Shown piece after piece: positions 1-22,377 of a stretch of 31,200 nucleotides of DNA. Where the stretch lies: IMG/VR virus record IMGVR_UViG_3300045988_101844, positions 1 to 31,200 of that record; one strand, given 5' to 3'. Position 1 is the stretch's first letter, and every line of letters starts with the position of its first letter. A program made the translations under genes and the position numbers. Under the pieces are notes generated by a model. It saw only the letters and a program-made list of their open reading frames with translations. It had not been told where the DNA came from and did no database searches. This stretch comes from a virus.

Positions 1-7
1 AAGAATT

Positions 8-793
8 ATGAATTGGAAACCAACAAACATTAAAGGATATTCAGTTAGTGACGAAGGTCAAATAAAGAATGAACTAACTGGAAAAATATTATCTCCATTT
101 AAGAATAATATGGGATATTATTTAGTAAGCATACAAGATAAAAAGTATCTTGTACATAGATTAGTAGCAGAGGCGTTTTTAAATAAACCTAATAAATGTA
201 ATATAGTAGAACATAAAGATGATGATCCCACAAATAATTGTGTAGATAATCTTATGTGAAGTACTCAGAAATTGAATTTAAATAGGCAAGGAAGGCTTGA
301 AAAGTTAAAAAGGTATTATCAGTCCAATGAATGAAAAGAAGCTAGAAAAAAGGCTTTAGAAACAATGAAAGCAAATGGATTTAAAAAGACTAAATCAGAT
401 AAGCAAAAGGCTAAAGAAGCGGCCAGATTAGATAGAATATCTAAAGAAAGAGAGAATATAAGACCTACTCTCGACCAACAATATGATGCGTTTATTAATC
501 CTTTAATTGATTTACTTAAATCTGGATATAGTTTAAAGAGAGCTGCACAATATTTTGGAATAAATGATACTACTGGCATTACTTATTTTTCTAAAAGATA
601 TTATGAAGAAACAGGAATTAAACTTATTACATATAAGATTAAAAAATCGTCGTTTTCAAATGCAGAAAAATTAATGAATAAAATTAAAGAATTATATAAT
701 CAAGGTTTAACTGTAGAGGAAATAAGTGAAGAAGTAAACAGATCAGTAAATATTGTTAATAAATATATAAAACTATGGAAGATTCATATTTAA
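8..793 (+). CDS. HNH homing endonuclease (NUMOD4-like N-terminus, HNH_3-type core, C-terminal HTH region), 261 aa under code 4
   Basis: Track ORFs 8..259 and 365..793 share a frame. They are joined by in-frame TGA at 257-259 and 332-334 with no TAA/TAG between. Reading TGA as Trp gives HKDDDPTNNCVDNLMW-STQ, the canonical HNH_3 NLxW motif. TAA stop at 791-793. Confidence 0.85.
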
Positions 794-957
794 ATAGAAT
801 TGCGGATATTAAAGAAACAATTAAACAAACAGAAGAGTATATTAAAGAATTAGATAAATGAATACTCGAATGTAAAGAAGCTACTAAAAGATTAGGAGAT
901 ATTATAGATAGAGTATTAGCACAAAGAGATTTTACATTTATTTCAAAATTTGATTAA
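775..957 (+). CDS. hypothetical small protein, 60 aa (code 4)
   Basis: ATG at 775, in-frame TGA at 859-861 (ELDKW-ILECK), TAA at 955-957. Overlaps the upstream gene end by 19 nt. No recognisable domain. Confidence 0.4.
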
Positions 958-959
958 TT

Positions 960-1094
960 ATGGATGATTTTTTATTTAAAAAGCTTAAAGAACTAGAATA
1001 TAGAATAGTTCAATTAGAAAACCAAAACAAAGGGTTAGTTTGGGAAGAAGTAGAAGAAAAACCAGAGATTCCTAACGCAACATATATTGACTAA
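960..1094 (+). CDS. hypothetical small protein, 44 aa
   Basis: ATG at 960, TAA at 1092-1094, coiled-coil-like sequence. Packed 2 nt after the previous ORF. Confidence 0.35.
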   Translation: MDDFLFKKLKELEYRIVQLENQNKGLVWEEVEEKPEIPNATYID

Positions 1095-1095
1095 T

Positions 1096-1236
1096 ATGAA
1101 GTACTTTACATATAAATTATGCTTAAATGGAGTAAATTACGTTTATGTAATTCCCGAAAATAGTAAATTCTTAGTAGATTTACAAACTGGAGAATTAATA
1201 CCTAAAGATGAGAAATTATTTGAGATAATGGAATAA
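1096..1236 (+). CDS. hypothetical small protein, 46 aa
   Basis: ATG at 1096, one nt after the previous stop. TAA at 1234-1236, followed by a terminator hairpin. Confidence 0.35.
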   Translation: MKYFTYKLCLNGVNYVYVIPENSKFLVDLQTGELIPKDEKLFEIME

Positions 1237-1241
1237 ACAAA

Positions 1242-1276
1242 AAGGAGGGTTATTTGCCCTCCTTTTCTTTTTTATT
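1242..1276. terminator. bidirectional rho-independent terminator between convergent modules
   Basis: Stem aaggaggg (1242-1249) pairs with ccctcctt (1257-1264) around a 7-nt loop. A T-run (ttcttttttatt) follows on the plus strand and tttgtttatt follows on the minus strand. The stop of the minus-strand HNH gene (1250-1252) lies in the loop. Confidence 0.7.
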
Positions 1277-1588
1277 AAACCTTTGATAATTACTTACTGC
1301 CGAATGTATAGCTTTATGACATACTGAACATAATGTTATCAAATCTTCCAAATGGTCTTGCTCCTCATATAAATTGTCATACCTCTTATGATGTACCGAT
1401 AATGACCTGTTTCCGCCTTCCTCAACGCATCAATTACAAGTTTGGCAGTGGTAGTTATCCCGCAACAAAACTTGCTCTCTAATAGCCTTAAATTCCTTTG
1501 AGCGGATATATCTCTGGTACTTTAAATATTCTTCACTTCTTACTTTCCTCTTAGTCTTATGAAGCAATTTACTTGATTTGGAATCCAT
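1250..1588 (-). CDS. small HNH endonuclease, 112 aa (code 4)
   Basis: Not in the track because TGA at 1430-1432 splits it. The translation contains DNYHCQTCN[W]CVEEGGNRSLSVHHKRYDNLYEEQDHLEDLITLCSVCHKAIH, which fits the C..C / HH / N / C..CH..H pattern of an HNH nuclease. TAA at 1250-1252. Confidence 0.75.
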
Positions 1589-1590
1589 AA

Positions 1591-2043
1591 TTATATAATA
1601 GTAAATTTCTGTCGTCTTTGCATCCCGTCTTTATTCTTTAATCCCAAGTGTATTCAACTAGCTATACCATTCCTAGGCCTTTCATATATCAACTGGTCGA
1701 AATCAAATTCTTCAATAGCTTCAGCAATCCAACTTTGGAATACTTTCATATTACCATTAATTGGAGATATATCTGCTGCATACCCTGTTAAATGAGCAGA
1801 AGTTGAGGATCCTCCTACTGCTTTATTAAGCTCCTTATTCCTAAAACCAGAGGAAATCCTGATGCCTGCATTGCCAAGCTGATTGTCATCACAATACTTT
1901 GCCCATCTCTCTCTTATTGGGTCTAAAAGCTTCTCGACCAACTCTATCAGGTGCTCTGTTATACTCTCATCTGGAGTGTTATTTATATGCTTAATTGAAG
2001 CAGTATCAGATCTTGTTAATTCTTCGAGTGTGAAATACTTCAT
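1591..2043 (-). CDS. endolysin, peptidase M15-type cell-wall peptidase, 150 aa (code 4)
   Basis: Track ORF 1654..2043 (SGFRNKELN, SAHLTGYAADI) ends at TGA 1654-1656. Read-through gives NGIAS-W-IHLGLKNK..., restoring the M15 C-terminal W-x-H motif. TAA at 1591-1593, 2 nt from the next gene start. Confidence 0.85.
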
Positions 2044-2201
2044 TATTTATATGAATTATGCAGTTTATAAAGATAAATAAAATAGCACACTGCTCCAAAT
2101 AACGTTAAACTAATAGTAATCCAAAAAGGAATTACTTTAATTAACAAAAATGCAATCATTAATAGTACAACTACTATTACATATTTTAACCAATATTTCA
2201 T
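2043..2201 (-). CDS. holin-like small membrane protein, 52 aa, two predicted TM helices
   Basis: ATG at 2201; sequence MKYWLKYVIVVVLLMIAFLLIKVIPFWITISLTLFGAVCYFIYLYKLHNSYK. Its TAA shares one base with the endolysin ATG (TAATG). Function is inferred from position and topology only. Confidence 0.55.
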   Translation of the reverse strand: MKYWLKYVIVVVLLMIAFLLIKVIPFWITISLTLFGAVCYFIYLYKLHNSYK

Positions 2202-2202
2202 A

Positions 2203-2859
2203 TTATATTTTATTTAAAATTATACTTATCTGTATTCCAGCTCTTCTTAGATGTACTCAAGTATCATAAGGCATAGGTGTATCACAGAATGACAAACCTA
2301 AAATGCCAATATCTTTATCCTCAGTCTTTAAATAAAATACTGCTATTTCATTCACTCTGTTGGATTTAAATGCATAATATAATCTTGGATCATCTGCTTC
2401 TAAACTGTCTATATTACCAAACCATCCATCATTCTTAGAAAACTCTATAATTGAAGTATAGTCAGATAACAGGAAATCTTTATAATGGCTACTTACAGAT
2501 CGTATTCCTGGTTTAACTTCCTCGGCATTCATTACTCCATAAGTAAATGGAAGTCCTCCTAATCCAGTAGTTCCATTATGATATTCAATAACCCAAGCTC
2601 TATCAGCATTGGTACTTTGAAGCAATTCTTTAAGCTTATATTTAATCTTTAAAGTTGCTTCATTTCTTGCAATAGTTTTAGAATTGTGAGTTTGTTCAAT
2701 ATAGGTTACAACCTTATTATAAACAATAGAGGGATTAAGTGTAATAACCATTACATAGGATATAAATATTAATCCAATCCCTGCTTTAAATATCTTTAGT
2801 AATCCATATTTATCAACCCATTCTAATACTTTGCCAAACCAATTTAATTTATTTTCCAT
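2203..2859 (-). CDS. N-terminally membrane-anchored protein of unknown function, 218 aa (code 4)
   Basis: Track ORF 2257..2859 ends at TGA 2257-2259. Read-through (PYDT-W-VHLRRAGIQISIILNKI) reaches TAA 2203-2205, 1 nt from the holin start. One hydrophobic helix near the N-terminus (GLLKIFKAGIGLIFISYVMVITL). Confidence 0.6.
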
Positions 2860-3284
2860 TACATATCATCAGTGCAAGTACCCAGTGTGTTGTCAACTTG
2901 GAAATCAGCTCTAACAAACACTCCGCAGGTAATATCTTTGAACTTTTGATAGAATGGAGTATAAATTAAAGGATAAGCTATTTCAACTTCTGGATATAGG
3001 TTATTAAAACGATTAATTATATTTTGCAGTGCAAGCATACCTGCTGACTGTTCCTCCAATTGGTTGTTATCAGTTTCATCCCATCTTGATACGAAGTATA
3101 GGTTTAAAGAGTAAGTAATAGTATCTTCATCTACACTAAAAGTATTAGGTGTTATATAGAACACATTATACTCAATAGTTGGTAAGCTATTTAACTCATA
3201 AATGTCTTTACTTCCTACAAAATTGATGTTTGGCTCTTCTAATGCACAAGCTTTTAAATTGCTAATTATCTCAAAATATGTCAT
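2859..3284 (-). CDS. hypothetical virion (neck/tail-completion-like) protein, 141 aa
   Basis: Intact track ORF with TAATG overlap to the downstream gene. Lies in the portal/adaptor neighbourhood. The function is a guess from context. Confidence 0.55.
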   Translation of the reverse strand: MTYFEIISNLKACALEEPNINFVGSKDIYELNSLPTIEYNVFYITPNTFSVDEDTITYSLNLYFVSRWDETDNNQLEEQSAGMLALQNIINRFNNLYPEVEIAYPLIYTPFYQKFKDITCGVFVRADFQVDNTLGTCTDDM

Positions 3285-3286
3285 AG

Positions 3287-3787
3287 TTATATATATTTAA
3301 ATGTTAATCCGCTAGCAGTTTTAGCTCTATGAGTTAATACATTAGATATAGACGTTCTAGTTATATTTAATTGTTTAGCTGCCTCCTTAACTGATTTATA
3401 ATAATTTCCATTACTATCAATAATAGGTCTAAATTTAGCTTCCGATATATGCTTTTTATGCCCTTCAGATAACTTACGACCTTTTACACTACCACCTTCT
3501 CCTCCAGGTTTTAAATTTAAACATCTGGCATCACAACTTCAGCAATCTGAAAGAATATCTTTCTCCCGTATACAATTATTATACTCAGTATCATTAAATT
3601 CTAATATAACCTTATTGTATGTTACTCCCTCTATTTTGCCATATCTTTGATAATATTTTTTAAGTATTATACCTGAACCTGCATAATCATCATTATAAGG
3701 ATCATTAGATGTTTTATGTTTACCTATATAATATTTACCTTTTAGATTACCGACTAGTGGCTGTATTTCATAAATATAGTAGGTCAT
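3287..3787 (-). CDS. GIY-YIG homing endonuclease, 166 aa (code 4)
   Basis: Track ORF 3539..3787 (YYIYEI...GKYYIGKH, GIY-YIG N-terminus) ends at TGA 3539-3541. The same frame continues W-SCDARCLNLKPGGEGG...NGNYYKSVKEAAKQLNITRTSISNVLTHRAKTASGLTFKYI (typical C-terminal DNA-binding module). TAA at 3287-3289. Confidence 0.85.
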
Positions 3788-3789
3788 AA

Positions 3790-4479
3790 TTACTTACTCT
3801 TTTTATTATTACTTGAAGGGAAATCATAAGCTCTTTGAAGAGGTCCCTCTCCAGGTTTAACGCTCCATCCTTTACCTCTTGCTCCACCAAGCCAAATATT
3901 GCAAGATGAGCTAGAGTAAAGATTAGGAAACATATCCTTTAATGGCTTATATGTATAAAGCTCAGGGAATTCGTTATAATATGTAATTATAAAGTCCTGT
4001 AAACGAGTCTTAAAGAAATCCGCCTTATCTCTATAATACTTCTTAATTTGATTTACTTGACTTGCTTCAGCAGCAATATCTTTCTCATCATCAGTTCTCA
4101 TAACTCCAAAATTACCAAGCTTATAAGATATAGGAATTACTATCTCGCTAAGTACTTGATAAAGTAAATAAGGCTGAACATAATAGTCTAATAGCTCTTT
4201 ATATCTGTAGTTATCAGAATCATCAATAGAATCACTTGGAAGTGGCTCAGGAGGTTCTATTGGATGAACTGGAGTATGAGGATCAATCCAATTAATACAT
4301 TTCTTTTGTAATGCTTCTAATAGCTTAGTACCAATAGTTGACTGAAGCTCTACATCTTGGGCACTTGTGATGGCTGCTTGTAAATATTTACCCGATATAT
4401 TGTTATCTAATGTAGAATTTGACTTTATATAGTCTTCTGAAATAAGCAGTACATTTCTATAGTTAAGTTGTTCCATCAT
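3790..4479 (-). CDS. hypothetical structural protein, possible head-tail adaptor, 229 aa
   Basis: Intact track ORF with TAA stop, sitting between two homing endonuclease genes downstream of the portal. The adaptor call rests on position and weak gp6-like N-terminal character only. Confidence 0.5.
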   Translation of the reverse strand: MMEQLNYRNVLLISEDYIKSNSTLDNNISGKYLQAAITSAQDVELQSTIGTKLLEALQKKCINWIDPHTPVHPIEPPEPLPSDSIDDSDNYRYKELLDYYVQPYLLYQVLSEIVIPISYKLGNFGVMRTDDEKDIAAEASQVNQIKKYYRDKADFFKTRLQDFIITYYNEFPELYTYKPLKDMFPNLYSSSSCNIWLGGARGKGWSVKPGEGPLQRAYDFPSSNNKKSK

Positions 4480-5071
4480 AAATAAATTTATTGTTTTTAT
4501 AAGGTCTATTTTCTTTTAAAGCTAAATATAATCCAGAACGTTCTCCATTAACTGATTTAACAGCTTCTTTCATTGAATTATATCTTGCAATAAAATTCCC
4601 ATTCATATCAAATCTTAATATAGGCTTAACTCTAGTAATTCGTCCTTTGGAAGCATTTCCAATTTTAATAAGTGTTTCCAAAGTATAGATTCCTTTCTTT
4701 CCTTTATTCCAGGGTGTTTTACCTTTTTTAGAATTTGACATTTTTGCTCTACTCTCATTAGAAAAAGAATACCCGTATGTACCTTCTCCTCCTGATGTTA
4801 TATTGTAACCATTTTCAGGAGTATTTGTTTTATATTTATGTATCAATATTCTCTCTAACGTCTTAGCGCAAGCTTCTGGTAAATTATCTTTAATTATGAT
4901 ATGTTCAAATCCATCTCAGCTATATTTTTGTATCGCTTTATAAAAGTAAGCTTGAGTAGAGTATCCATATCCATTTTTTCACCTAGCTTGCGCACTTTGT
5001 CCAGTAATGCCAAAATATAGCTTATTGTTATACTTATTTATATGGCAATAAACAGTATAATTATTCAACAT
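4463..5071 (-). CDS. GIY-YIG homing endonuclease with NUMOD3-like repeats, 202 aa (code 4)
   Basis: Track ORF 4463..4846 is only the C-terminal part. The same frame upstream is open to ATG 5071 through TGA at 4979-4981 and 4916-4918. This gives YCHINKYNNKLYFGITGQSAQAR[W]KNGYGYSTQAYFYKAIQKYS[W]DGFEHIII, with both TGA at Trp positions conserved in the family. Overlaps the portal end by 11 nt and the next gene start by 17 nt. Confidence 0.9.
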
Positions 5072-6152
5072 TTTGTTTGCTATCTTCTTGTCCATTTGGA
5101 GTTAAGCTAAAAGGAGTTATAGTTATTGAACCTTTCATTCCAAATATCTTATCAAATGTATCTACTATTTCGACCTGAATTGGTCTAACTACTGTACGAT
5201 TATAAAGTTTAAAAGCTTCATTAAATTCTTGTTCGTTGAATCCACTTGAGTAGTTAAGGCCAAAAAGTACACTATTAGCTCTAAATGCGCAGAATATCTG
5301 TTCTCTTGTTCTATCAGATAAAGCACTATATTTCTCATCAAAATCATCAGAATCTAAACGCTCAATAGTAGTCTTATTTGTTTCATCATCATTATATGAA
5401 ATAAGAACTCTACCAGCATTTTGAAATCCTGAGAATTTCTCATTAATATTCATCTCAATCTCTTCTTTAACTTCATCTGTAGGCTGTCCATTATTAAAGT
5501 TAATGATAAGATTGCCCATAAATCCGTTATGAAGAGAATTTAGATGGAACTCATTAATATTCTTCTCAGTTTCGCAAGATAGGATAGCTGCACCATAAAC
5601 AGGGACTGGATATACTTTTCTTGTTATATAGCCCTTATTATAAACAACACTTGTAGGATTATCATCTGAATAATTAAATTTTGGATATTTGATAGCTTTA
5701 ATAGACCAAGCAGACCAATCATCGGCATAATAGAATACTTCATTCTTTTCATCAGAACGAATCTTCATAAAGTCAAGATGATATATTTCTGAAACTCTAC
5801 CTACCATATCTCTAATTATTTGTAAAGCATATCCTCCAAAAATCATCTTATCTTTAGATACTTTACGCATAATATCCATAATAGTCTCACCTTTCTTATT
5901 TACAGTTACTTCAAATCCTGGTGCATTACATATAACATCATTACCAACAATAAAGTCAGCAGTACCATTAATGATAGATTGAAGAGTAGCTACATTTAAA
6001 TATAAATCCCATAAATATACAGGATAGCGATTATCTTCACCCCAAGAAATATAGTCCTTACCTCTAACTTTACCTTCTACTGGCAATACGATGTTTGATA
6101 CAATTACTGGATCAATTGCACTTAATTGTACTTTTGTTTTATTTTCGCTCAT
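5061..6152 (-). CDS. portal protein (HK97-family-like), 363 aa
   Basis: Track ORF 5061..6209; I prefer the start at ATG 6152 (MSENKTKVQ). Portal-like pattern: FSGFQNAGRVLISYNDDE...IERLDSDDFDEKYSALSDRTREQIFCAFRANSVLFGL. No TGA codons. Confidence 0.7.
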   Translation of the reverse strand: MSENKTKVQLSAIDPVIVSNIVLPVEGKVRGKDYISWGEDNRYPVYLWDLYLNVATLQSIINGTADFIVGNDVICNAPGFEVTVNKKGETIMDIMRKVSKDKMIFGGYALQIIRDMVGRVSEIYHLDFMKIRSDEKNEVFYYADDWSAWSIKAIKYPKFNYSDDNPTSVVYNKGYITRKVYPVPVYGAAILSCETEKNINEFHLNSLHNGFMGNLIINFNNGQPTDEVKEEIEMNINEKFSGFQNAGRVLISYNDDETNKTTIERLDSDDFDEKYSALSDRTREQIFCAFRANSVLFGLNYSSGFNEQEFNEAFKLYNRTVVRPIQVEIVDTFDKIFGMKGSITITPFSLTPNGQEDSKQNVE

Positions 6153-6531
6153 AAGCCGTATATTTGTTTTGTTTATCGTATTGGTATTTATTATTCTGAT
6201 AATCTCCAACTCTTATTAGTCCTGAACTCAATACAGGTATAGGTTTACCAGCAACTAATATCTGTGTTCCTGTAGTAAGAGTATTTTCATAAGTTACCAG
6301 AATAACTGGATTACCATATAGCTCTGACTGCATAGGATTATTTACATCTACAATTACTTCAAGTTTATTTGGATTACTAAACAGAATATACTGATATTCA
6401 CCATCAGACATATCATCAGATAATGTAATATCAAACTTATAGTAGATATTTTCAGCATAATTCTGATTTTCAAGGTCAAATAAATAAACTTCCTTTGTAA
6501 TCGTATTCTGCATTAACAAAGTATAGTTCAT
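6139..6531 (-). CDS. hypothetical protein, 130 aa
   Basis: Track ORF 6139..6540 begins at TTG; the first ATG is at 6531. It is the first gene after the terminator at 6601..6632. No recognisable domain. Confidence 0.55.
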   Translation of the reverse strand: MNYTLLMQNTITKEVYLFDLENQNYAENIYYKFDITLSDDMSDGEYQYILFSNPNKLEVIVDVNNPMQSELYGNPVILVTYENTLTTGTQILVAGKPIPVLSSGLIRVGDYQNNKYQYDKQNKYTAYERK

Positions 6532-6571
6532 ATTTTGCAATGGTTTTACGTTAATTTACATATCTTTTTCT

Positions 6572-6580
6572 TAAAATATA
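6572..6580 (-). promoter_or_regulatory. TATATTTTA motif (candidate phage promoter element)
   Basis: The minus strand reads TATATTTTAA between terminator 6601..6632 and ATG 6531. The same 9-mer recurs after two other terminators (13362..13370, 25056..25064). Confidence 0.3.
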
Positions 6581-6600
6581 AAAGACTATGTATATGTATT

Positions 6601-6632
6601 AACATAAAAATAGGGAGAATAAAATCTCCCTA
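6601..6632 (-). terminator. rho-independent terminator
   Basis: Stem tagggaga (6611-6618) pairs with tctcccta (6625-6632) around a 6-nt loop. On the minus strand it is followed by tttttatgtt. It lies 7 nt after the TAG stop at 6639-6641. Confidence 0.65.
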
Positions 6633-6638
6633 AATTTA

Positions 6639-7625
6639 CTATGCAGAAGCTAATGTCCAGTTCTTAGATGTAGCTAAAGCTTTTTGCTCTTCTGTAAGAG
6701 CTCCATAAACAGTAGAATTAAATGTAATAGTTTGTGTAGAAGTTCCAGTTAAATCATTTGCTTTATTTAAGATATTATCGACTGACTCAGCATTAAGATT
6801 TGGTAATCACTGCAAATTAAGATCTACCTTTAAATTTGTAATCCCTCCAAATGTAGTTATAGAAGTCATTTCTCCACCTGTTATTAATTCGCTAAATGTA
6901 TAGTTATCAACAGCTGTCAAATCTATTTCTGGAATTTTAGTTAGATTTGTACTACCAGTCCAAAAGAATTGTTCTAATGATAATGTACTAGAATTATATC
7001 CATTGAATACTATTTTATCACATATTTCGTTGCCATTATATCCATACATAAAGTAAACTAGTGATGCATTAATTCCATTTTTAATATTTACTGTAATTGT
7101 ACCAGTAGTACTTATGTTTGCATAATATAAAACAAAAGGAATATATAATTCTGTTATATTAAAAACTATATCTTGCAGAGTTGAATTTGGAGATATAGTG
7201 CTTTCAAACATACTTGAAGGGTCATTAAACTGTTGACCTGAATTTATTGCTATTTGGTGAATATTAGCTTGTTTAAAACTCTCTTTTGCTAAATAAGAAA
7301 CAGAAGTATCTAATTTACTACCTAAATCAATATAGCTATCAGGTAAGTTACTATTGTTAAATAAATATGAAATATCTGCAGTACTTGGATTTATAGTTCA
7401 ATTTAGTTTCTCAAATTGACTATGATGCATATTACAATAAGCAAACGTTAATCCTGTTTTAGTAACATCAAACACCTCACCTCCAGAAATCTGTCCTATC
7501 TTATCTGCATAGCTTCTAAAGGTATCTGAATCTGATACAGCAACACCTTTAGCTACAATAGCATCTTTAATGGCACTCTTAGTACCTTCAAGATACGTTA
7601 ATTTATCAGAAATTGTATTTGCCAT
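6639..7625 (-). CDS. tail fibre-associated protein, paralog C (conserved fibre N-terminus; C-terminal module shared with the BspA/DUF285-like paralogs), 328 aa (code 4)
   Basis: Track ORFs 7398..7625 and 6807..7211 share a frame. TGA at 7398-7400 and 6807-6809, and the gaps have no TAA/TAG. The C-terminus NILNKANDLTGTSTQTITFNSTVYGALTEEQKALATSKNWTLASA parallels the C-termini of 12261..13355 and 8507..9424. TAG stop at 6639-6641. Confidence 0.75.
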
Positions 7626-7645
7626 ATTATATATTTAAAATGACT

Positions 7646-8260
7646 TTATTCATTTGGAATTTCACCATTAATTGTATCAAGAGTAGTTGAAATATTACCA
7701 ATCTGAGCTTGAATTGCTGAGATTTCTCCATCTAACTCTGTCATCTTTGTATTATATGCATCTGTAGTTACATAGTTTGATAATTCACTTTTATCTGCTT
7801 TAAGTGCAACTTCATCTTTAGTAGCTAATCCAGATACATCAGGAATCTTATTCTCTACAGCTGTAAGCTCTTCTTTAGTAGCAAAATCACTAGTATCAGG
7901 AATTTCTGCTTTAGTTGCATAATTACTTAAATCTACAGATAGTTGCAAACCTTCTCCATTTCTATGTAAAGATAGAGGTTGATTAGCTTGGAATACTTCC
8001 ATCTTAGATGTTTCTAATTCAGTAATATCATTCTTAATTGGCTCTAACTTAGGTTCAAGTATAACATCCAATTGAGAATTAATTTGCTCATCAATTATTT
8101 CAACAGCCTTATCTTCAGAAATGTAATTACCTTTAGGTTGAAATCTCGCATCTGCTTCAATCTTTGTATAAGAACCAACTGGAAGCTGAGCTGTCTCAAT
8201 ACCACATTTCTTACTAACATAGAAGGTCTGAGTATTCTTAGTATTCTTTAATATAATCAT
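7646..8260 (-). CDS. tail fibre protein B (coiled-coil/repeat), 204 aa
   Basis: Intact track ORF. The motif LQLSVDLSNYATKAEIPDTS and the ATK-E repeats resemble fibre A (9426..12038). Confidence 0.65.
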   Translation of the reverse strand: MIILKNTKNTQTFYVSKKCGIETAQLPVGSYTKIEADARFQPKGNYISEDKAVEIIDEQINSQLDVILEPKLEPIKNDITELETSKMEVFQANQPLSLHRNGEGLQLSVDLSNYATKAEIPDTSDFATKEELTAVENKIPDVSGLATKDEVALKADKSELSNYVTTDAYNTKMTELDGEISAIQAQIGNISTTLDTINGEIPNE

Positions 8261-8262
8261 CG

Positions 8263-8499
8263 TTATTTAACTTTTATTGATTCTTCATACTCTTTTGAAG
8301 CTGTTTTAGCAGTTTCTTTATATTCAGAATCCTGCTCTAATGTTATCTCTCTTAAATGTTCTAAATCACAATTTAATGGACAAATACACTCTTTAAATGA
8401 GTTATACCCTTTAATATCCATTTCGTCTTTATAGTTAGTAAGAAGCATATTATCTTCAGGTTTAACTACTTTATACTTTTCTTTAATTTCAATTTTCAT
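8263..8499 (-). CDS. small protein, paralog of 12040..12261 (possible fibre assembly factor), 78 aa
   Basis: Intact track ORF. Shares the Y-K-D/E-x-x-DIK-x-Y...CPL pattern and the same cassette position with 12040..12261. Confidence 0.55.
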   Translation of the reverse strand: MKIEIKEKYKVVKPEDNMLLTNYKDEMDIKGYNSFKECICPLNCDLEHLREITLEQDSEYKETAKTASKEYEESIKVK

Positions 8500-8506
8500 A
8501 GTGTAT

Positions 8507-9424
8507 TTAATTAGAATATGATATTGTTCATCCTTTAGAAACTATCTGGGCTTTTTGATCTTCAGTTAAAGAGTCAAAGATTACTTTATTAAAAACAATA
8601 GTAGGATTCTTAGATGCGTCTGAATATAGTCCTTCTATTATATTATTTATAGATTGAACAGTAAGTGCAGGTAATCCTCCTAAATGCAATGTATATGTAC
8701 TCATAGTGACTCCCTTCCCAATATTTGTAAAACCTCCAATATCTGTAAGTAGGGTGAAATCTTTAGATTCTTGATCTCTCTCATCATCAGTTCTGAATAA
8801 ATCAGAAAAATTACTCCAGTTACTTGCATCATATTGCGGAACAGATTGAAGCCTATAACAGTACCTAAACATTTGAGAAACACTAACTTTTTTAGTTGAA
8901 GAAAAAGTTATCTGAGGTGCTGTTTTTAATTGTTCTGAATATCTAAATAATCCAGTACAATCTACAGCATTAGATAGATCTAATGGATCTATTTCTGTAG
9001 CTCCAATTCCAGATAAGGCACCATACATCCTCTTTTTACCAATAAAAATATCAGGTAATATATATGTTAAACTACGACATCCAGCAAATAAATAATACAA
9101 ATCAGTATCTGTATTTTCAGTAATATATTTTTGAGCATCTATAGATGTAGTTAACTGATACTGTAATGATGAATCTGCTCTAAATATAGAAGTTTTTGGG
9201 TTAGATGAAGTAGGATTTATATATCAACTAATAACATCTGGATTATTACATTCTGTAATTATTGAATTTACACTTCCTAAATATTGTCTTGCAACTGCTT
9301 TACGAAAAGTATCATCTATAAATGGAATTGGAGGACAAGGCCAGACTTTGGTACTGCCAACATAAATGGCAGTACCTTGTCTGTTACCTACATAAAATGC
9401 TTTTAAATTATCTCGAATATTCAT
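8507..9424 (-). CDS. BspA/DUF285-like leucine-rich-repeat tail protein, paralog B, 305 aa (code 4)
   Basis: Track ORFs 9224..9424 and 8528..9100 share a frame. TGA at 9224-9226 and 8528-8530. LRR-like FAGCRSLTYI and SQMFRYCYRLQSVPQYDASNWSNFSDLF. The C-terminus LTEDQKAQIVSKG[W]TISYSN has TGA where the paralogs have TGG. TAA at 8507-8509. Confidence 0.75.
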
Positions 9425-9425
9425 A

Positions 9426-12038
9426 TTACTCTACAATTAAATATTGAGTATTTGGATCTTTACTTGAAATAGCATCATATTCAGATTGAGTTACCACAAG
9501 AATAGTATGAACTTGTGGTTGAGTTCCACTTCCATAAGTAACTGGATTAGAAACGCTCTCAATATCTATATTTCCACTACCTAACAAGCTTTCTCCATTA
9601 ACTGTCTTGATATTTGTTCCACTAACTAAAGTATCTTGTTTATTTCCTAATCCTGCATTTAATTCAGTTTCCGTAACATATTCATCAGGAATAGAAGTTA
9701 AAAATCCACTATCATTAGTAAGCTCAGATGTCTTAGTTGGTATACCTAAATCTGATAAACTCTTATTGCCAGATAACTCAACAGAATTAATCTGAGGTTT
9801 ATTTGTTAACTGAGTATAATCGGTAGTCCCTCCACTACCAGATATTTCAAGATTACCTTCTCCTAAAATACTTTCACCATTAATAGTCTTTATATTAGTC
9901 CCAGAGACTAATTGCTCCTGATAACTATGATAACTAGTATCTGCTGATACTCCAGTTGGAGTAATAGTAGTTTGAACTACAGTATGATTAGCTGTAGTAC
10001 TTTCAAAATGGAAAGTAGCTTGAATATTTTCTCCTGAAACAAAACATACTTCTGGAGCTGCTATATCACCATAACCTAGAATATTTACATAATAAAGCTC
10101 AAATGGTGTTTTATTAGCTATAGCATTCTTAACAGCAGCGAAATCTCCAGAAAGATGAGTAGTGGAATTTATAAATAGAAATGGAATATTAGAACCACTT
10201 TCAATTTCTATATTACCTTCTCCAAGTAAAGACTGACTATTGATTGTTTTGATATTAGTTCCACTTACAAGTAAATCTTGCTTAGTAGCCATCTCTTTAT
10301 CAAGAGAATCAATCTTATCTCCATCTTCTTCTTGTTTTGTTTTAATAATTGATATATCTGAAGTATTAGTTGCTACTTGAGTAGATAAAGATTCTACCAC
10401 AGAAGAATCAGCTTTACCAGCAAGTTCTGTTTTTGTTGCATAATCTCCTACAGGCTGTTTAGTAGCAAGCTGCTCATCAACATAAGTCTTATCTGCTTTA
10501 CCTGCTAAATCTCCAGAAACCTCTGTTTCAGTTACAAAGTTAGAATCATTAGTAAGCTCACTAACTTTAGTTGGAATATCACTCTTTAAAGCATAATCTC
10601 CTTTATCTTGTTTTGCATCAATCTTACTTTGTAAAGAAGATCTTAGAGTCTCAATTTCCTCATTAACTGAATCGTTAGTTGCATAATCACCAACTGGTTG
10701 GTATCCAGATAAATCTACAGATAACTGAGTCTTATCTTCATTAAAAGCTAATGGAGCTTGAGGAGCAAATACTCCTTGTTTTTCCTCAAGTTTGGCATCT
10801 ACTTCTTCTTTAGTATATCCTTTATTAGTAAGATCAACCTCAGTAACTTTAACAGTCATATTACCATTATTTACTAAGATTGCATTAATAACTACTAATA
10901 CACCATTATCTTGGAAATAATAACCATATAAATCAATAGTTTCGGGATGCTCAATAGTTGCAACAGGAATAACTATAATATCACCTTTATATGTAATCTG
11001 GCAGAATAAATAGAAGTCCAGATTAGTTCTAATAAAGTCATAGATATGTTTCTGTCTTACAGGATCATTCTCATCTAAATTAAGTAAGAAATGATTCTCA
11101 AAAGCAGAGATTACATTATCTATAATAGATATATTCTTTCCTGCTGTAAGCGTTTCCTGTTTTGAAGCTATCTCTTTATTAATAGCTGTATTTAAAGCAT
11201 CAATTTCAGCTTTGGTATATTTATCTGCTAATTGTGCATATAGAGGACCATTAACAATACCAGCTTGGTTAGTCTCTGTATTATATATTGGAAGTTCAAC
11301 TGCTTCTCCAGTTTGATTACCAAATACAGGAGCTAAAGTAACTTTAGATGGGACTGATTGAATATTAATGGCAGGTACGATTGAAGCTGCTCCAGATAAT
11401 TCAGTTCCATTTAAAGATGGTTTGTTACGAATAGTATTATAATCTGCGGAAATAGTATTCTCTTCAATTACTATACCGTCACCTTGGTTTAATTTATTCT
11501 GTTTAGAATTTAATGCACTTTCAGTAGCTTCTTTTGTAAGATAATTATCTTCAACTCATTTTTCAGTAGCATATCCATCTAAGCTACTAATAAACCCACT
11601 ATCATTAGTTAATTGTGAAGTTTTTGTTGGTATCTCAGATTTATCGGCTTTATTGGCAACTGCATCTGAAATTTCAGTTGTAACCTCTTCTTTAGTTGGA
11701 TAATCAGCTAATCGTTCAGTTATCTGATTATCAATATTTTCAGCACTTGGAATAGTACTCTTTATTTGCTCTAACTCAGAATTAATAGTAACAATATCTT
11801 CAGATGACGCTAATCCCAACTCTTCCGAAGTCATATTACCATTTAACTCAATACTATTGATCTCAGGTTTATCCTGAAGATCAAAATAGCTATTAGTAGC
11901 TAACTGAGAACCATCCATAACCTTAACTTCATCATCCTTGTCAATAACAATAACTTTAGTCACATTTGACTTATCTATTGTTTCGACTTCAAGGACATTA
12001 AGATAAGGAAGAATTGTCTTTTCAGTTTCGTTTGCCAT
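9426..12038 (-). CDS. long tail fibre protein A, 870 aa (code 4)
   Basis: Track ORFs 11556..12038 and 9426..10859 share a frame. I translated 10860..11555 codon by codon and found no stop and no Met, which is why the track shows nothing there. Single TGA at 11556-11558 (ATEK-W-VEDNYL). Repeated SELTNDSGF and LVSGTNIKTINGESLLGEGNIEI motifs. Confidence 0.8.
9558..10271 (-). repeat. three intragenic copies of a 24-aa fibre repeat (LVSGTNIKT[IV]N[GS][EQ]S[LI]LG[ES]GN[IL][ED]I)
   Basis: Copies at 10200..10271, 9840..9911 and 9558..9629 within fibre A. Conserved at the protein level and partly at the DNA level. Confidence 0.8.
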
Positions 12039-12039
12039 A

Positions 12040-12261
12040 TTATTTATTTTTATAAGATTCCTCTTGTTCTTTTAAATATCTTTCATTTGTTTCTGCATCA
12101 ATAACCCTATAAATAGATATATCAAAGGTTAAAGGGCAATATAAAATAGTTGATGCACTATACTCTTTAATATCATCACCTTCTTTATATGAGGTAATAA
12201 AATATCCTTCATCAGAGTATAACTTTATAAATATGCTAGTTTCAATATGTAAATGTTCCAT
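12040..12261 (-). CDS. small protein, paralog of 8263..8499, 73 aa
   Basis: Intact track ORF. The ATG shares a base with the upstream TAA (TAATG). Confidence 0.55.
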   Translation of the reverse strand: MEHLHIETSIFIKLYSDEGYFITSYKEGDDIKEYSASTILYCPLTFDISIYRVIDAETNERYLKEQEESYKNK

Positions 12262-13355
12262 TATGCTAATATCCAGTTTTTATTAGTAGCTATTGCTTTC
12301 TGTTCATCTGATAATTTTGCCAGATTATTTGCTCCTAAATTTAAAGTCTTACTATCCTCTCCAGTTAAATCAACTAAAGCATTAATTACAGATAATAATG
12401 ATTCTAGGGTTAAATCACTATGTAACCATAATCCCGCTCTTAACTCTCCTTCTATAGTTAGATTAGTTAACATTGAAGCACCTGCAAATATACCACTATA
12501 CTCTTGTTCTTGTTCACTATAACTAGATATATTTATAGTAGCATCAGTTAAAGAAGTGCAGTTAGTAAACATATAACCAGCACTATGAAGTGAGCTTAAA
12601 TTGGATTTAAATGTTCTTAAATTATAACAGCCAGAAAACATCTCTGTTGCATCACCAACATTTGGAAGATCAATCTCAAAAGATGTTAGATTAGAATTTG
12701 TGCATTTATGAGATGCATCAACTAAATTTTCCCAACCTACAACATTTGCAGGAACTTCTGCAGCAGTAAAATAAGCTAAGTTAACTACAGCTTGTGTAAT
12801 ATCATAAGTTGAAGAAGTTGGCACATTAACAATTACATCAATAAACTCCATATAATCATATCCATCTGCAGGATGAATCATTGTAGTTCCATTCTCTGTA
12901 ATAGTAACTTCTCTATGCTCCTCAACTGGAATCTCTACATCTACTTCAATACTTGATAAACCTTGATAGCCAGCATCAGGTTTAACTTCAGTCATTGATA
13001 GGTTTTTATCTATTGTTATATGTTTCTCTTGTAAAGTAGGAGTTGGTACTGGAACATTTATTTGTGCAGAAACCTTCTCCATAACATCATAATCTGGATC
13101 AGGTAAAATATCTATTAATCCGTTAGATGTAATTGTAATCTCTTTAGTAGCTTGTACTGTAGGAACAACAACATCAACAGATACATTTACTTTCGACATA
13201 CCATCATAACCCTCATCTGGAGTTACAACGAACTCAGCATTCTGAGTATATTCTACAGACTTCTCCTGTAATTTACATTCTTGAGCAGCTAAAGCTTCAA
13301 TATCTCTTGAAGTTGTATTCTTTGCTACTTCTGGTGTTGTATATTTAATAGCCAT
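12261..13355 (-). CDS. BspA/DUF285-like leucine-rich-repeat tail protein, paralog A, with N-terminal Ig-like repeats, 364 aa
   Basis: Intact track ORF. About four repeats of the pattern P..GYDG.S.V.V.V.VP, then ATEMFSGCYNLRTFKSNLSSLHSAGYMFTNCTSLTD (DUF285/BspA-like LRR). C-terminus LSDEQKAIATNKNWILA. No TGA codons. Confidence 0.75.
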   Translation of the reverse strand: MAIKYTTPEVAKNTTSRDIEALAAQECKLQEKSVEYTQNAEFVVTPDEGYDGMSKVNVSVDVVVPTVQATKEITITSNGLIDILPDPDYDVMEKVSAQINVPVPTPTLQEKHITIDKNLSMTEVKPDAGYQGLSSIEVDVEIPVEEHREVTITENGTTMIHPADGYDYMEFIDVIVNVPTSSTYDITQAVVNLAYFTAAEVPANVVGWENLVDASHKCTNSNLTSFEIDLPNVGDATEMFSGCYNLRTFKSNLSSLHSAGYMFTNCTSLTDATINISSYSEQEQEYSGIFAGASMLTNLTIEGELRAGLWLHSDLTLESLLSVINALVDLTGEDSKTLNLGANNLAKLSDEQKAIATNKNWILA

Positions 13356-13361
13356 TTTCTA

Positions 13362-13370
13362 TAAAATATA
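13362..13370 (-). promoter_or_regulatory. TATATTTTA motif (candidate phage promoter element)
   Basis: The minus strand reads TATATTTTAT, 6 nt upstream of ATG 13355 and just after terminator 13392..13428. Confidence 0.3.
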
Positions 13371-13391
13371 AATAGTTAATTATCTGTCCAT

Positions 13392-13428
13392 AAACAAAAT
13401 AAGGGGCAAGTAAATTAATACTCGCCCC
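13392..13428 (-). terminator. rho-independent terminator after the capsid module
   Basis: Stem ggggcaagta (13403-13412) pairs with tactcgcccc (13419-13428), with one mismatch and a 6-nt loop. The minus strand continues ttattttgttt. Confidence 0.7.
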
Positions 13429-13438
13429 TCTTCTGTTG

Positions 13439-13963
13439 TTAAGCACCTACAACACTTTGAATAGCTTCAGCACTCAACTCATAAGGATATGATTCAGAGT
13501 CAGTAGCTAAAGTCAGCGTATAAGCGTTCTGATCACCTTTTGCAGTACCAGTAACACCCGTACCAGCGGAAGCGCTTACATAGTCATCTTTTCCTAAGAA
13601 CCAGTATTTGCCATTAGAATCTTCTACAACAACTACAAGTTGTCCAATAGAAAGAGCAGCAATCTCGATTCTTTTCTTAGTCTCCATCTTTGTAAATACA
13701 AGAGCAAGCTCATTACTTACATAGTTGGTTCCTGCAGTTTCGTCAACGTTCAATGTTGAGGTTAGAGAACCAGTACCTTTGCGGAATTGGTAATTATACC
13801 ATTTAGCATCTGATTCAAGAGTAATAGCTGAGATTTGATTAGTCTCATCATCTACAGTTACACTCTTAACATTATCGTACTGAGTAATCCATACCTGTTT
13901 GATACCACCAAGCGAAGATTCGCAATCCAGGGTAATACCAGCGATAGTTATTAAACAAGCCAT
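13439..13963 (-). CDS. beta-rich virion protein, 174 aa (possible tail-tube-like or head decoration protein)
   Basis: Intact track ORF directly downstream of the major capsid gene. Higher GC than its surroundings and no TGA. The tube-like impression (SNGKYWFLGKDD...GTGVTGTAKGDQNAYTLTL) is weak. Confidence 0.6.
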   Translation of the reverse strand: MACLITIAGITLDCESSLGGIKQVWITQYDNVKSVTVDDETNQISAITLESDAKWYNYQFRKGTGSLTSTLNVDETAGTNYVSNELALVFTKMETKKRIEIAALSIGQLVVVVEDSNGKYWFLGKDDYVSASAGTGVTGTAKGDQNAYTLTLATDSESYPYELSAEAIQSVVGA

Positions 13964-14001
13964 ATAATTTCAATCTTATTTAAAGTTAAACTCTATTGAA
14001 A

Positions 14002-14907: not shown

Positions 14908-14929
14908 AATTTTATAAATAATTTAATAA

Positions 14930-15532: not shown

Positions 15533-15545
15533 TTAATTAATAATT

Positions 15546-16139: not shown

Positions 16140-16192
16140 TTTTATTAATATATAGCACTTTATAAATTTGTAATATTTTTAGAATATCTAAT

Positions 16193-16240: not shown

Positions 16241-16251
16241 ACTAAATATTT

Positions 16252-22376: not shown

Positions 22377-22377
22377 T

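What the first reader, a model, noticed from the sequence alone, without database searches (positions are those of the whole stretch)
1591..2859. A peptidoglycan lysis cassette in a TGA=Trp genome argues against a wall-less code-4 host
Bacteria known to read TGA as Trp are wall-less Mollicutes and a few obligate endosymbionts.

This genome carries a classical muralytic exit module. A 52-aa two-TM holin-like gene (2043..2201) is coupled by TAATG to a peptidase M15-type endolysin (1591..2043; SAHLTGYAADI, SWIHLG). The endolysin itself needs TGA read as Trp to complete its C-terminal motif.

A cell-wall peptidase is not expected for a wall-less host. The host is therefore probably walled and uses the standard code, which would make the reassignment a phage-specific trait. 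That in turn predicts a phage-encoded suppressor tRNA or other decoding factor outside this window.
Basis: inference. Interest (0 to 1): 0.8.

Follow-up and report, generated by a model that had tools for sequence, protein, structure and literature searches.

The report
Lysis cassette of TGA-recoded gut phage
This is the cell-bursting gene set of an essentially complete 31-kb human-gut phage that reads the stop codon TGA as tryptophan, a kind of phage already described, but one whose whole lineage carries no suppressor tRNA and always keeps a TGA just before a catalytic residue of its wall-cutting enzyme.

Summary
Window 1591-2043(-) encodes a 150-aa Peptidase_M15_3 (LAS-fold) endolysin. Its codon 130 is an in-frame TGA, two codons before the third zinc ligand, His132. 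A 52-aa two-TM holin-like gene overlaps its start through TAATG. TGA means Trp, not Gly: it aligns with a near-invariant Trp and swaps with TGG, never GGN, in relatives.

The host is probably a walled, standard-code Bacteroidota. Four things point there: portal and integrase relatives occur almost only in Bacteroidota phages; the genes lack Shine-Dalgarno sites; Bacteroidetes-type promoters sit in the early intergenic regions; and the nearest cellular endolysin homologue lies in a Bacteroidales contig.

Phage-specific TGA recoding with recoded lysis genes is already published (Borges et al.). The premise that native TGA=Trp bacteria are all wall-less or endosymbionts is outdated, because recoded gut Eggerthellaceae are now known.

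The predicted suppressor tRNA outside the window is refuted. The window is the whole genome minus about 55 nt, and neither it nor 38 recoded relatives carry any tRNA.

New detail: endolysin codon 130 and a C-terminal codon of the neighbouring 218-aa membrane protein are TGA in all 23 recoded relatives. The holin's Trp codons are always TGG. How UGA is decoded remains unknown.

The parts
1591..2043 (-). Endolysin, 150 aa. LAS-fold zinc metallopeptidase (Peptidase_M15_3) with no signal peptide or TM segment.
   Evidence: Pfam PF08291 E 1.1e-13; phrog_894 E 1.7e-29. H84, D91 and H132 conserved. AlphaFold2 model of the 95%-identical P0001 has pLDDT 96.5, and its best PDB match is 1lbu, a Zn DD-peptidase (E 2.8e-5), followed by hedgehog, LdcB, VanY and MepA. 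No hydrophobic segment.
1654..1656 (-). In-frame TGA, codon 130 of the endolysin, read as Trp. It lies two codons before zinc ligand His132.
   Evidence: Aligns with a near-invariant Trp. The same Trp is TGG in standard-code Bacteroides fragilis phage BF10P2. It is TGA in 23/23 recoded relatives and TGG in the 5 loci of standard-code cousins.
2043..2201 (-). 52-aa holin-like membrane protein with a predicted two-TM topology. Its stop overlaps the endolysin start.
   Evidence: Hydropathy scan gives one hydrophobic stretch, residues 1-44, which I read as two TM segments. The gene is present in 23/23 recoded relatives with the same TAATG junction, and all 45 of its Trp codons are TGG. No Pfam, PHROG or NCBIfam hit.
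2041..2045 (-). TAATG stop/start overlap that couples the holin-like gene to the endolysin.
   Evidence: Read directly from the sequence. Conserved in all 23 recoded relatives that hold the cassette.
2203..2859 (-). 218-aa protein with one N-terminal TM anchor (about residues 23-46). A conserved partner of the endolysin; function unknown.
   Evidence: Hydropathy. Homologous (29% identity, E 2e-26) to the 227-aa protein directly upstream of the endolysin in the standard-code prophage L015. No family hit except a weak phrog_30125 match. The single-sequence structure model is unusable (pLDDT 39).
2257..2259 (-). In-frame TGA, codon 201 of the 218-aa protein, 18 codons before its end.
   Evidence: TGA in 23/23 recoded relatives. 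It is one of only three Trp-conserved sites in the genome that are fixed as TGA.
1..31200 (.). Essentially complete phage genome: 38 genes of at least 50 aa, about 30% GC, TGA=Trp, with no tRNA, integrase, release factor or aminoacyl-tRNA synthetase.
   Evidence: Relative L029 joins window position 4 to position 31200 with a 57-nt spacer. Relatives' contigs are 29-33.6 kb. No tRNA. Family scans of the proteins.
30128..30158 (-). Bacteroidetes-type promoter match (TTTG-N19-TAnnTTTG) upstream of the 59-aa early gene.
   Evidence: One of only 3 matches in the window. It lies in an intergenic region on the coding strand, and the equivalent position matches in L001, L003 and L008.
31131..31161 (-). 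Second Bacteroidetes-type promoter match, upstream of the iterons and the 248-aa HTH gene.

Best explanation
Region 1591-2859 is the lysis module of an essentially complete ~31.2-kb, integrase-less tailed phage from the human gut whose whole lineage reads TGA as tryptophan.

The module has three genes in transcription order. First is a 218-aa membrane-anchored protein of unknown role. Second is a 52-aa holin-like protein. Third, coupled through TAATG, is a cytoplasmic LAS-fold zinc peptidase that cuts peptidoglycan peptide stems once the holin opens the inner membrane.

The endolysin carries one TGA at codon 130. Termination there would give a 129-aa product that lacks zinc ligand His132 and the last two beta-strands, so active enzyme is made only while UGA is decoded as Trp (inferred). 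This TGA, and one near the end of the 218-aa protein, are fixed across the recoded clade. The holin is always readable in the standard code. That pattern fits the published idea that recoded stops gate lysis.

The host is most likely a diderm, walled, standard-code Bacteroidota (inferred). UGA decoding is not provided by a phage tRNA. It must come from the host, for example a UGA-reading tRNA-Trp variant, or from an unrecognised phage factor, for example one that blocks RF2. That step is unknown.
For: Enzyme identity and ligands.

Holin-like gene: conservation and TAATG coupling.

TGA = Trp: window TGA codons align in relatives with TGA 37, TGG 30, AAT 5, TAT 4, ATA 1 and GGN 0. In the standard-code cousin L006, 6 of 7 aligned window TGA sites are TGG.

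Fixed states: endolysin W130 is TGA in 23/23, p218 W201 is TGA in 23/23, the holin is TGG at 45/45 codons, and most other Trp sites flip between TGA and TGG.

Completeness and absence of tRNA.

Bacteroidota host:
- Among 50,697 phage records the portal hits only Nonlabens phages, one Bacteroides phage and one unnamed faecal phage.
- The integrase of the standard-code cousin L006 is nearest to those of Bacteroides, Phocaeicola, Porphyromonas and Cellulophaga phages.
- Only 1 of 38 genes has a Shine-Dalgarno-like motif.
- Two of the three TTTG-N-TAnnTTTG matches lie in early intergenic regions in the coding orientation, and relatives match in similar places.
- The closest cellular endolysin homologue (53% identity) lies in a contig with Mfa-like fimbrial and HU-HIG genes.
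- A cousin fragment is binned in a Bacteroidales MAG.

TGA is under-used: 38% of Trp codons, against 63-88% A-ending in the other NNR codon pairs. That does not look like an old native code-4 system.
Against: - No direct host link (CRISPR spacer, prophage junction or Hi-C) was obtained for the recoded clade. The MAG hit is a 5.9-kb contig in a bin.
- With no tRNA, and with 11 TGA codons in one 1118-aa tail gene, decoding must be efficient. A host that natively reads UGA would explain that most simply.
- TGA is not confined to late genes: there is no heterogeneity among genes (permutation p = 0.19), and early-region genes also carry it.
- Overall counts of the promoter motif are not above chance, and one conserved match sits only about 4 nt from a start codon.
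- The gating role of the fixed TGA is inferred. The 2/2 against 1/35 contrast (Fisher p about 0.005) is not corrected for phylogeny.
- Neither enzyme activity nor holin function was tested.
Confidence: 0.7

Rival explanations
1. The host natively reads UGA as Trp and is walled. It could be a recoded gut lineage such as the Eggerthellaceae genera Equivita and Gorillivita, or an undescribed code-4 Bacteroidota. The phage would then simply share its host's code and need no decoding factor.
For: - No tRNA, release factor or tRNA synthetase anywhere in a complete genome or in 38 relatives.
- TGA is spread evenly over genes and along their length, with 11 in one essential gene, and is never used as a stop.
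- Code-4 bacteria from a walled phylum exist in mammalian guts (PMC13462651).
Against: - The Shine-Dalgarno-less leaders and the -33/-7 Bacteroidetes promoter matches do not fit Actinomycetota or Bacillota.
- Portal and integrase relatives are in Bacteroidota phages, and no code-4 Bacteroidota is reported in the papers read.
- TGA makes up only 38% of Trp codons although other NNR pairs are 63-88% A-ending. The capsid, portal and tail-tube-region genes use TGG only.
- Close cousins use the standard code with TGA as a stop.
- The phage is very common in human stool assemblies (4311 MCP homologues), whereas the recoded Eggerthellaceae were recovered mainly from equids and non-human primates.
Confidence: 0.12
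2. A suppressor tRNA or tRNA-like RNA is encoded by the phage but was missed, either because it is non-canonical or because it lies in the unsequenced junction.
For: - Borges et al. suggest that undetected non-canonical tRNAs may explain why only 35% of code-4 phages show one.
- ARAGORN in mitochondrial mode reports a 64-nt 'tRNA-Trp(tca)' at 2425-2488(-).
Against: - That candidate lies inside the p218 coding sequence. Its anticodon loop and acceptor stem are not kept in the ~70%-identical recoded relatives.
- The junction missing from the window is about 55 nt of AT-rich spacer.
- Rfam at E<=1 finds no tRNA, and relaxed ARAGORN finds no UCA anticodon.
- The only long intergenic gap is a small ORF, a terminator and a promoter-like element.
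Confidence: 0.05
3. The host is a wall-less Mollicute (native code 4), and the M15 protein does something other than lyse a wall.
For: - Low GC (30%).
- TGA=Trp with no phage tRNA.
- 22 of the 27 GenBank phages predicted to use table 4 infect Mycoplasma or Spiroplasma (PMC11210395).
Against: - The cassette is a classical holin-endolysin pair with intact zinc ligands under purifying selection.
- All host signals point to Bacteroidota.
- TGA is the minority Trp codon.
- The phage is abundant in human stool.
Confidence: 0.02
4. TGA encodes glycine (code 25), and the host is a Gracilibacteria or Absconditabacteria cell.
For: These CPR bacteria are walled and recode TGA, and phages that share their code are known (10.1101/2021.08.26.457843; PMC10746230).
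Against: - None of the 77 codons aligned with window TGA sites in relatives is GGN; 67 are TGA or TGG.
- The endolysin TGA aligns with an invariant Trp that is TGG in a cultured standard-code phage.
Confidence: 0.01
5. TGA is still a stop. The interrupted genes would be pseudogenes, or rare read-through products of a defective or standard-code phage.
For: Under code 11 the endolysin ORF ends at 129 aa, and some pipelines annotated 127-129-aa versions.
Against: - Sequence downstream of each TGA stays in frame and conserved, for example the invariant H132.
- Gene packing becomes tight only with TGA as sense.
- TGA and TGG interchange at conserved Trp sites.
- The lineage has thousands of members.
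Confidence: 0.01

Closest known systems
TGA->Trp (code 4) recoded gut phages that infect standard-code hosts (Ivanova et al. 2014; Yutin et al. 2021 crAss-like groups; Borges et al. 2021/2022 clades Agate and Jade, plus the small 22-34-kb clades Garnet, Amethyst and Topaz)
   Same: - In-frame TGA at conserved Trp sites.
- Low GC, with TAA as the dominant stop.
- Close standard-code relatives, here temperate and carrying integrases.
- Recoded stops in lysis genes.
- A predicted Bacteroidota host.
- No detectable suppressor tRNA, as in 65-85% of code-4 phages (10.1101/2021.08.26.457843; PMC11210395).
   Different: - The genome is complete and only ~31 kb, so every gene can be inspected. None is a tRNA, release factor or tRNA synthetase.
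- TGA also occurs in early-region genes, with no significant enrichment in late genes.
- Membership of a named clade such as Garnet could not be tested, because no reference sequences were available.
Peptidase_M15_3 endolysins of Bacteroides phages (B124-14, BF10P2, vB_BfrS_UZM3) and crAss-like phages (cr114_1, cr4_1)
   Same: 40-47% identity over 89-99% of the length, the same H..D..H ligands and the same 'W-x-H' C-terminal motif.
   Different: Those genes encode the motif Trp with TGG and are read in the standard code. Here the codon is a fixed TGA.
Streptomyces albus G zinc D-Ala-D-Ala peptidase (PDB 1lbu) and other LAS enzymes (LdcB, VanY, MepA)
   Same: It is the best sequence match (E 5e-4) and the best fold match (E 2.8e-5) among solved structures. 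Query H84 and D91 align with chain residues 154 and 161; from memory, those are the zinc ligands.
   Different: Only about 20% identity. The phage enzyme has a single domain and no signal peptide. Its bond specificity is unknown.
Phages of Mycoplasma and Spiroplasma (native code 4)
   Same: TGA read as Trp without a phage suppressor tRNA.
   Different: Their hosts have no wall. The window has a holin-endolysin cassette, Bacteroidota-type expression signals, and TGA as the minority Trp codon.
Class II (two-TM) holins such as S21 of lambdoid phage 21
   Same: Small size, two predicted TM segments, a charged C-terminus, and a position immediately upstream of the endolysin with a stop/start overlap.
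   Different: No detectable sequence homology to any holin family. Topology and function are untested.

Membership tests
Peptidase_M15_3 / LAS zinc metallopeptidase endolysin | Profile match above the curated threshold | tested here: met
   PF08291 at 51.7 bits against a 23.2-bit cut-off; phrog_894 E 1.7e-29.
Peptidase_M15_3 / LAS zinc metallopeptidase endolysin | Zinc ligands H-x6-D plus a C-terminal H | tested here: met
   H84 and H132 are invariant and D91 is at least 90% conserved in 16 and 35 sequences. H84 and D91 align with 1lbu residues 154 and 161.
Peptidase_M15_3 / LAS zinc metallopeptidase endolysin | LAS (hedgehog / DD-peptidase) fold | tested here: met
   The AlphaFold2 model of the 95%-identical P0001 (pLDDT 96.5) matches 1lbu, hedgehog N-domains, LdcB, VanY and MepA.
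Peptidase_M15_3 / LAS zinc metallopeptidase endolysin | Muralytic activity | not testable with these tools
   Needs expression of the TGA->TGG construct on purified sacculi.
Holin (class II type) | Small membrane protein with two TM segments and a charged C-terminus, next to the endolysin | tested here: met
   The two-TM split is my reading of one continuous hydrophobic stretch (residues 1-44). The gene is conserved with the TAATG overlap in 23/23 relatives.
Holin (class II type) | Homology to a described holin family | tested here: not met
   No Pfam, PHROG or NCBIfam hit.
Holin (class II type) | Membrane-permeabilising function | not testable with these tools
   Needs an experiment.
Code-4 recoded phage of a standard-code host (Borges-type) | In-frame TGA at conserved Trp positions, with TGA not used as a stop | tested here: met
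   None of 38 genes ends in TGA.
Code-4 recoded phage of a standard-code host (Borges-type) | Host uses the standard code | tested here: inconclusive
   Indirect evidence for Bacteroidota. No spacer match or prophage junction for the recoded clade.
Code-4 recoded phage of a standard-code host (Borges-type) | Phage-encoded Sup-tRNA(UCA) or other code-change genes (RF1, TrpRS) | tested here: not met
   None in the window or in 38 recoded relatives. This feature is absent from most published code-4 phages too, so it is not strictly defining.
Code-4 recoded phage of a standard-code host (Borges-type) | Recoded stops concentrated in late and lysis genes, with early genes in the standard code | tested here: inconclusive
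   No heterogeneity among genes (p = 0.19), and early-region genes carry TGA. Against that, the first three transcribed genes have none, and two of the three fixed TGA sites are in the lysis cassette.
Close standard-code relatives (a feature reported for recoded clades) | Related phages that use TGA as a stop | tested here: met
   L006, L012 and L015: same gene order, no in-frame TGA; L006 and L015 also carry integrases, and 4 of 23 L006 genes end in TGA.
Native code-4 Mollicutes phage | Wall-less host, no muralytic cassette, and TGA as the main Trp codon | tested here: not met
   A cassette is present. TGA is 38% of Trp codons against 63-88% A-ending in other NNR pairs.
Code-25 phage (Absconditabacteria / Gracilibacteria) | TGA aligns with Gly or GGN | tested here: not met
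   No GGN among 77 aligned codons.

The most novel reading that the evidence does not exclude
A whole, very common lineage of ~31-kb gut phages decodes UGA as Trp efficiently in a standard-code Bacteroidota host without any phage tRNA.

There are two possible routes. The phage could exploit a host tRNA-Trp(CCA) variant that reads UGA (4-bp anticodon stem, or A9C/G24A type, as in PMC13092985). Or one of its few unassigned small proteins could disable RF2 or reprogram tRNA-Trp.

The TGA fixed two codons before the endolysin's third zinc ligand, next to an always standard-code holin, would then be a selected translational gate on lysis.
Probability: 0.35. Interest if true: 0.75.

Novelty: new member of a known kind. 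Interest (0 to 1): 0.4.

Why it matters
Phage-specific stop-codon recoding is established, but how TGA is decoded in the majority of code-4 phages that lack a suppressor tRNA is an open question.

This lineage offers a compact case for that question:
- It is a complete 31-kb genome with 38 genes, none of them a translation component.
- It is abundant in human stool assemblies.
- It has standard-code temperate cousins for comparison.
- Its lysis cassette shows a clean contrast. The holin is always TGG. The endolysin and the 218-aa protein are always TGA near the C-terminus.

If a host can be cultured, both the decoding mechanism and the lysis-gate idea become directly testable.

There is also a practical point. 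Standard-code annotation truncates this endolysin to an inactive 129 aa.

Tried and rejected
- Code 15 (TAG as sense) gives no gain in ORF length.
- Code 25 is rejected by the codon alignments.
- ARAGORN in mitochondrial mode proposed a 64-nt tRNA-Trp(tca) at 2425-2488(-). It lies inside the p218 coding sequence and is not conserved in the ~70%-identical recoded relatives, so I rejected it.
- The 264-nt gap at 25050-25313 was checked as a possible structured RNA. It holds a possible 31-aa ORF, an intrinsic terminator and a conserved pre-ATG element.
- A 148.6-kb IMG/VR contig (L024) looked like a possible prophage-in-host. Its fetched 21 kb is phage throughout, in circular order, so it gives no host information.
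- The capsid protein has no hit in 50,697 phage records, and megablast of 19 kb finds nothing. The nearest large terminase subunits are below 30% identity.
- The host flank of prophage L015 could not be reached. The 10-kb flank limit and the rule on which proteins may be looked up prevented it.
I used the 95%-identical P0001 for the endolysin. The 200-aa code-11 part of p218 gave an unusable model (pLDDT 39).
- Counts of the Bacteroidetes promoter motifs are not above chance overall; only the positions of the matches are suggestive.
Full report
**1. What is at the coordinates**

Nearly all genes of the window lie on the minus strand, and GC is about 30%.

- Under code 11 the ORF at 1654..2043(-) ends after 129 aa at a TGA. 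Reading on gives 150 aa ending at 1591.
- The 150-aa protein matches Pfam Peptidase_M15_3 (E 1.1e-13) and PHROG 894 'endolysin' (E 1.7e-29).
- The 52-aa ORF at 2043..2201(-) shows one continuous hydrophobic stretch (residues 1-44), which I read as two TM segments, and it has a basic tail. Its TAA overlaps the endolysin ATG as TAATG.
- The interval also contains a 218-aa protein at 2203..2859(-) with one N-terminal TM anchor and its own TGA at codon 201.

**2. TGA is a sense codon across the genome, and it means Trp**

- With TGA as sense, the longest ORFs grow from 710 aa to 1129, 928, 882 and 731 aa, and the genes become tightly packed.
- Of 38 genes, 20 carry 44 in-frame TGA codons against 71 TGG. 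No gene ends in TGA (35 TAA, 3 TAG). TGA positions are spread evenly along genes.
- Endolysin codon 130 aligns with a near-invariant Trp. H84, D91 and H132 are conserved. In the cultured, standard-code Bacteroides fragilis phage BF10P2 that Trp is TGG.
- In codon-level alignments with five related contigs, window TGA codons face TGA 37 times, TGG 30, AAT 5, TAT 4, ATA 1 and GGN 0.
- This excludes code 25 (TGA=Gly) and the idea that these are pseudogenes.

**3. The enzyme**

- The best sequence match among solved structures is the Streptomyces albus zinc DD-peptidase 1lbu. H84 and D91 align with chain residues 154 and 161. That those are the zinc ligands is from my memory of the family, not from a tool result.
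The model has pLDDT 96.5. It matches 1lbu (E 2.8e-5), then hedgehog N-domains, LdcB, VanY and MepA, which is the LAS fold.
- There is no signal peptide or TM segment, so export must depend on a holin. This is an inference from established lysis biology.

**4. The window is the whole genome, and there is no tRNA**

- Homologues of the endolysin, capsid and terminase sit on contigs of 29-33.6 kb.
- L001 (contig of 31,151 bp) is a circular permutation of the window.
- Relative L029, 93-94% identical across the two window-end segments, joins window position 4 to position 31200 across 57 nt of AT-rich spacer.
- Two independent assemblies start at exactly the base where the window ends.
- ARAGORN at default and relaxed settings, and Rfam at E<=1, find no tRNA in the window.
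- Forty related loci have none either: 38 recoded and 2 from the standard-code cousin L006.
- All 34 IMG/VR relatives, with large-terminase identity of 50-100%, use TGA as sense.
- No protein resembles a release factor, tRNA synthetase, deaminase or integrase.
- The predicted suppressor tRNA outside the window is therefore refuted.

**5. Host**

All evidence is indirect but points the same way.

- Among 50,697 phage records the portal hits only Nonlabens (Flavobacteriaceae) phages, Bacteroides phage BS-TP3 and one unnamed faecal phage.
- Endolysin relatives are most numerous in Bacteroides (58 records) and also occur in Prevotella (15) and crAss-like phages.
- The closest cellular endolysin homologue (53% identity) lies in a contig with Mfa-like fimbrial genes, HU-HIG and a contractile-injection locus, which is typical of Bacteroidales.
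- Standard-code cousins share the order portal, DUF6712, endolysin. These are L006, the prophage L015 in an 82.5-kb contig, and L012.
  - L006 and L015 carry integrases.
  - The L006 integrase is nearest to those of Bacteroides, Phocaeicola, Porphyromonas and Cellulophaga phages.
  - The L015 integrase carries a weak Pfam Arm-DNA-bind_5 hit.
  - L012 is binned in a Bacteroidales MAG.
- Only 1 of 38 genes has a Shine-Dalgarno-like motif. Leaders are A/T-rich with A at position -3. From general knowledge, this is the known Bacteroidota pattern.
- Two of the three TTTG-N17-23-TAnnTTTG matches lie in the two early intergenic regions on the coding strand. Relatives match in similar places. Overall counts are not above chance.
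- TGA is only 38% of Trp codons, while other NNR pairs are 63-88% A-ending. The capsid and portal genes use TGG only.

Together this argues against an old native code-4 system. I put a walled, standard-code Bacteroidota host at about 0.7-0.75.

**6. What is already known**

- Borges et al. (bioRxiv 10.1101/2021.08.26.457843) described TGA->Trp and TAG->Gln recoding in gut phages of standard-code Firmicutes and Bacteroidetes.
  - They reported small clades of 22-34 kb, very close standard-code relatives, and lysis genes biased to recoded stops.
  - They found suppressor tRNAs in only 35% of code-4 genomes.
- Cook et al. found suppressor tRNAs in 15% of table-4 phages (PMC11210395).
- Its premise is also outdated.
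  - Native UGA=Trp is now reported in gut Eggerthellaceae (PMC13462651).
  - It is also reported in Verrucomicrobiota and Patescibacteriota.
  - UGA-reading tRNA-Trp(CCA) variants also occur in standard-code bacteria. A 4-bp-stem and a normal tRNA-Trp gene co-occur in Bacteroides oleiciplenus (PMC13092985).

**7. What this case adds**

- Across the 23 recoded relatives that hold the cassette, endolysin identity ranges from 99% down to 51%. Codon 130 is TGA in 23/23 and W47 is TGG in 23/23. The five standard-code cousin loci have TGG at codon 130.
- p218 codon 201 is TGA in 23/23, and other p218 Trp sites are mostly TGA in relatives.
- Only one other Trp-conserved site in the genome is fixed as TGA. 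Most sites flip between TGA and TGG.
- The holin-like gene is present in 23/23 with the same TAATG junction, and all 45 of its Trp codons are TGG.
- The holin can therefore be read in any code, while the endolysin loses its third zinc ligand unless UGA is decoded.
- This fits the published lysis-gate hypothesis. The 2/2 against 1/35 contrast gives Fisher p of about 0.005, not corrected for phylogeny.
- p218 is homologous to the 227-aa protein directly upstream of the endolysin in prophage L015 (E 2e-26). Its role is unknown.

**8. Mechanism, with shown and inferred steps**

- Shown: the gene content, the codon meaning, conservation of the zinc ligands, the absence of tRNA genes, and the fixed codon states.
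- Inferred: holin function, muralytic activity, the Bacteroidota host, and the gating role.
- Unknown: the UGA decoder. Eleven TGA codons in the 1118-aa tail gene require efficient decoding, so weak leaky read-through is implausible.
- The candidates are a host tRNA-Trp variant or host suppressor, a phage protein that acts on RF2 or tRNA-Trp, or a natively recoded host (rival, about 0.12).

**9. Verdict**

A walled host is likely. The recoding is phage-lineage-specific in the sense that close cousins use the standard code. The tRNA prediction is wrong, and the concept is already published.
- This is a new member of a known kind, of moderate interest as a minimal, abundant, tRNA-less model.

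Noticed in passing
window 30960-31075 (- strand): Two pairs of direct repeats ('cgattcagtaccc' twice and 'aataaaagtaatactata' twice) lie between a promoter-like site and the 248-aa HTH gene (30180-30926). They look like iterons of a replication origin.
   Followed up: no
window 8-793(+), 1250-1588(-), 3287-3787(-), 4463-5095(-), 28451-28966(-): Five homing-endonuclease-type genes (HNH/NUMOD4, HNH, I-HmuI-like, GIY-YIG/NUMOD3, HNH) sit in a 31-kb genome. All five contain in-frame TGA, so the mobile genes share the phage's code. Their positions differ between relatives.
   Followed up: partly
window 28222-28467 and 28914-29228 (-): An 81-aa protein with a Sigma70 region 4 / HTH match and a 104-aa protein lie close together, separated in the window by an HNH gene. 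In relatives (L001) the two are adjacent. From the sequence alone, the 104-aa protein looks like sigma region 2, but no family scan supports that. They might be a two-piece phage sigma factor.
   Followed up: no
window 16139-16172, 25049-25082, 27880-27913: A conserved ~34-nt AT-rich element ('...AATATATTTTAA..AAAA' directly before the ATG) precedes the genes that start at 16139, 25049 and 27879. It may be a phage-specific middle or late promoter, or a translation signal. An intrinsic terminator lies just upstream at about 25095-25125.
   Followed up: partly
window 1-805 and 30193-31200, against L001 11498-14148: The replication and early module has been swapped. Relatives carry a 573-aa protein plus a GIY-YIG/T5orf172 gene where the window has the 248-aa HTH protein and an HNH-HTH gene.
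   Followed up: partly
L006 (logan SRR15399167_6008), L015 (ENA ERZ27227513 k141_170349), L012 (JAGBVS010000031.1): These are standard-code cousins with the same portal, DUF6712, endolysin order; L006 and L015 also carry integrases. L015 is a prophage inside an 82.5-kb contig. They could give the host and the ancestral state of the recoded clade.
   Followed up: partly
L024 (IMGVR_UViG_3300045988_175865, 148,631 bp): A 148.6-kb IMG/VR contig contains this 31-kb phage in circular order over the 21 kb fetched. It is probably a concatemer or a chimera of related strains rather than a prophage.
   Followed up: partly
window 6639-7625, 8507-9424, 12261-13355 (-): Three tail-fibre-region proteins share a BspA/DUF285-like leucine-rich region and a common C-terminal motif ('...LT.EQKA......W.'). 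They look like a family of alternative receptor-binding proteins.
   Followed up: no
window 25167-25262 (-): A possible 31-aa ORF (MQIKEFLNLICYVIDKANEENRQIEEWKRKH, with one TGA) lies in the only long intergenic gap.
   Followed up: no
L009-L011 (Bacteroidales-type contigs): A Peptidase_M15_3 homologue (53% identity to the phage endolysin) sits directly after gp25-like, PAAR and VgrG-like genes of a contractile injection system. It may be an effector or a wall-remodelling enzyme of that system.
   Followed up: no
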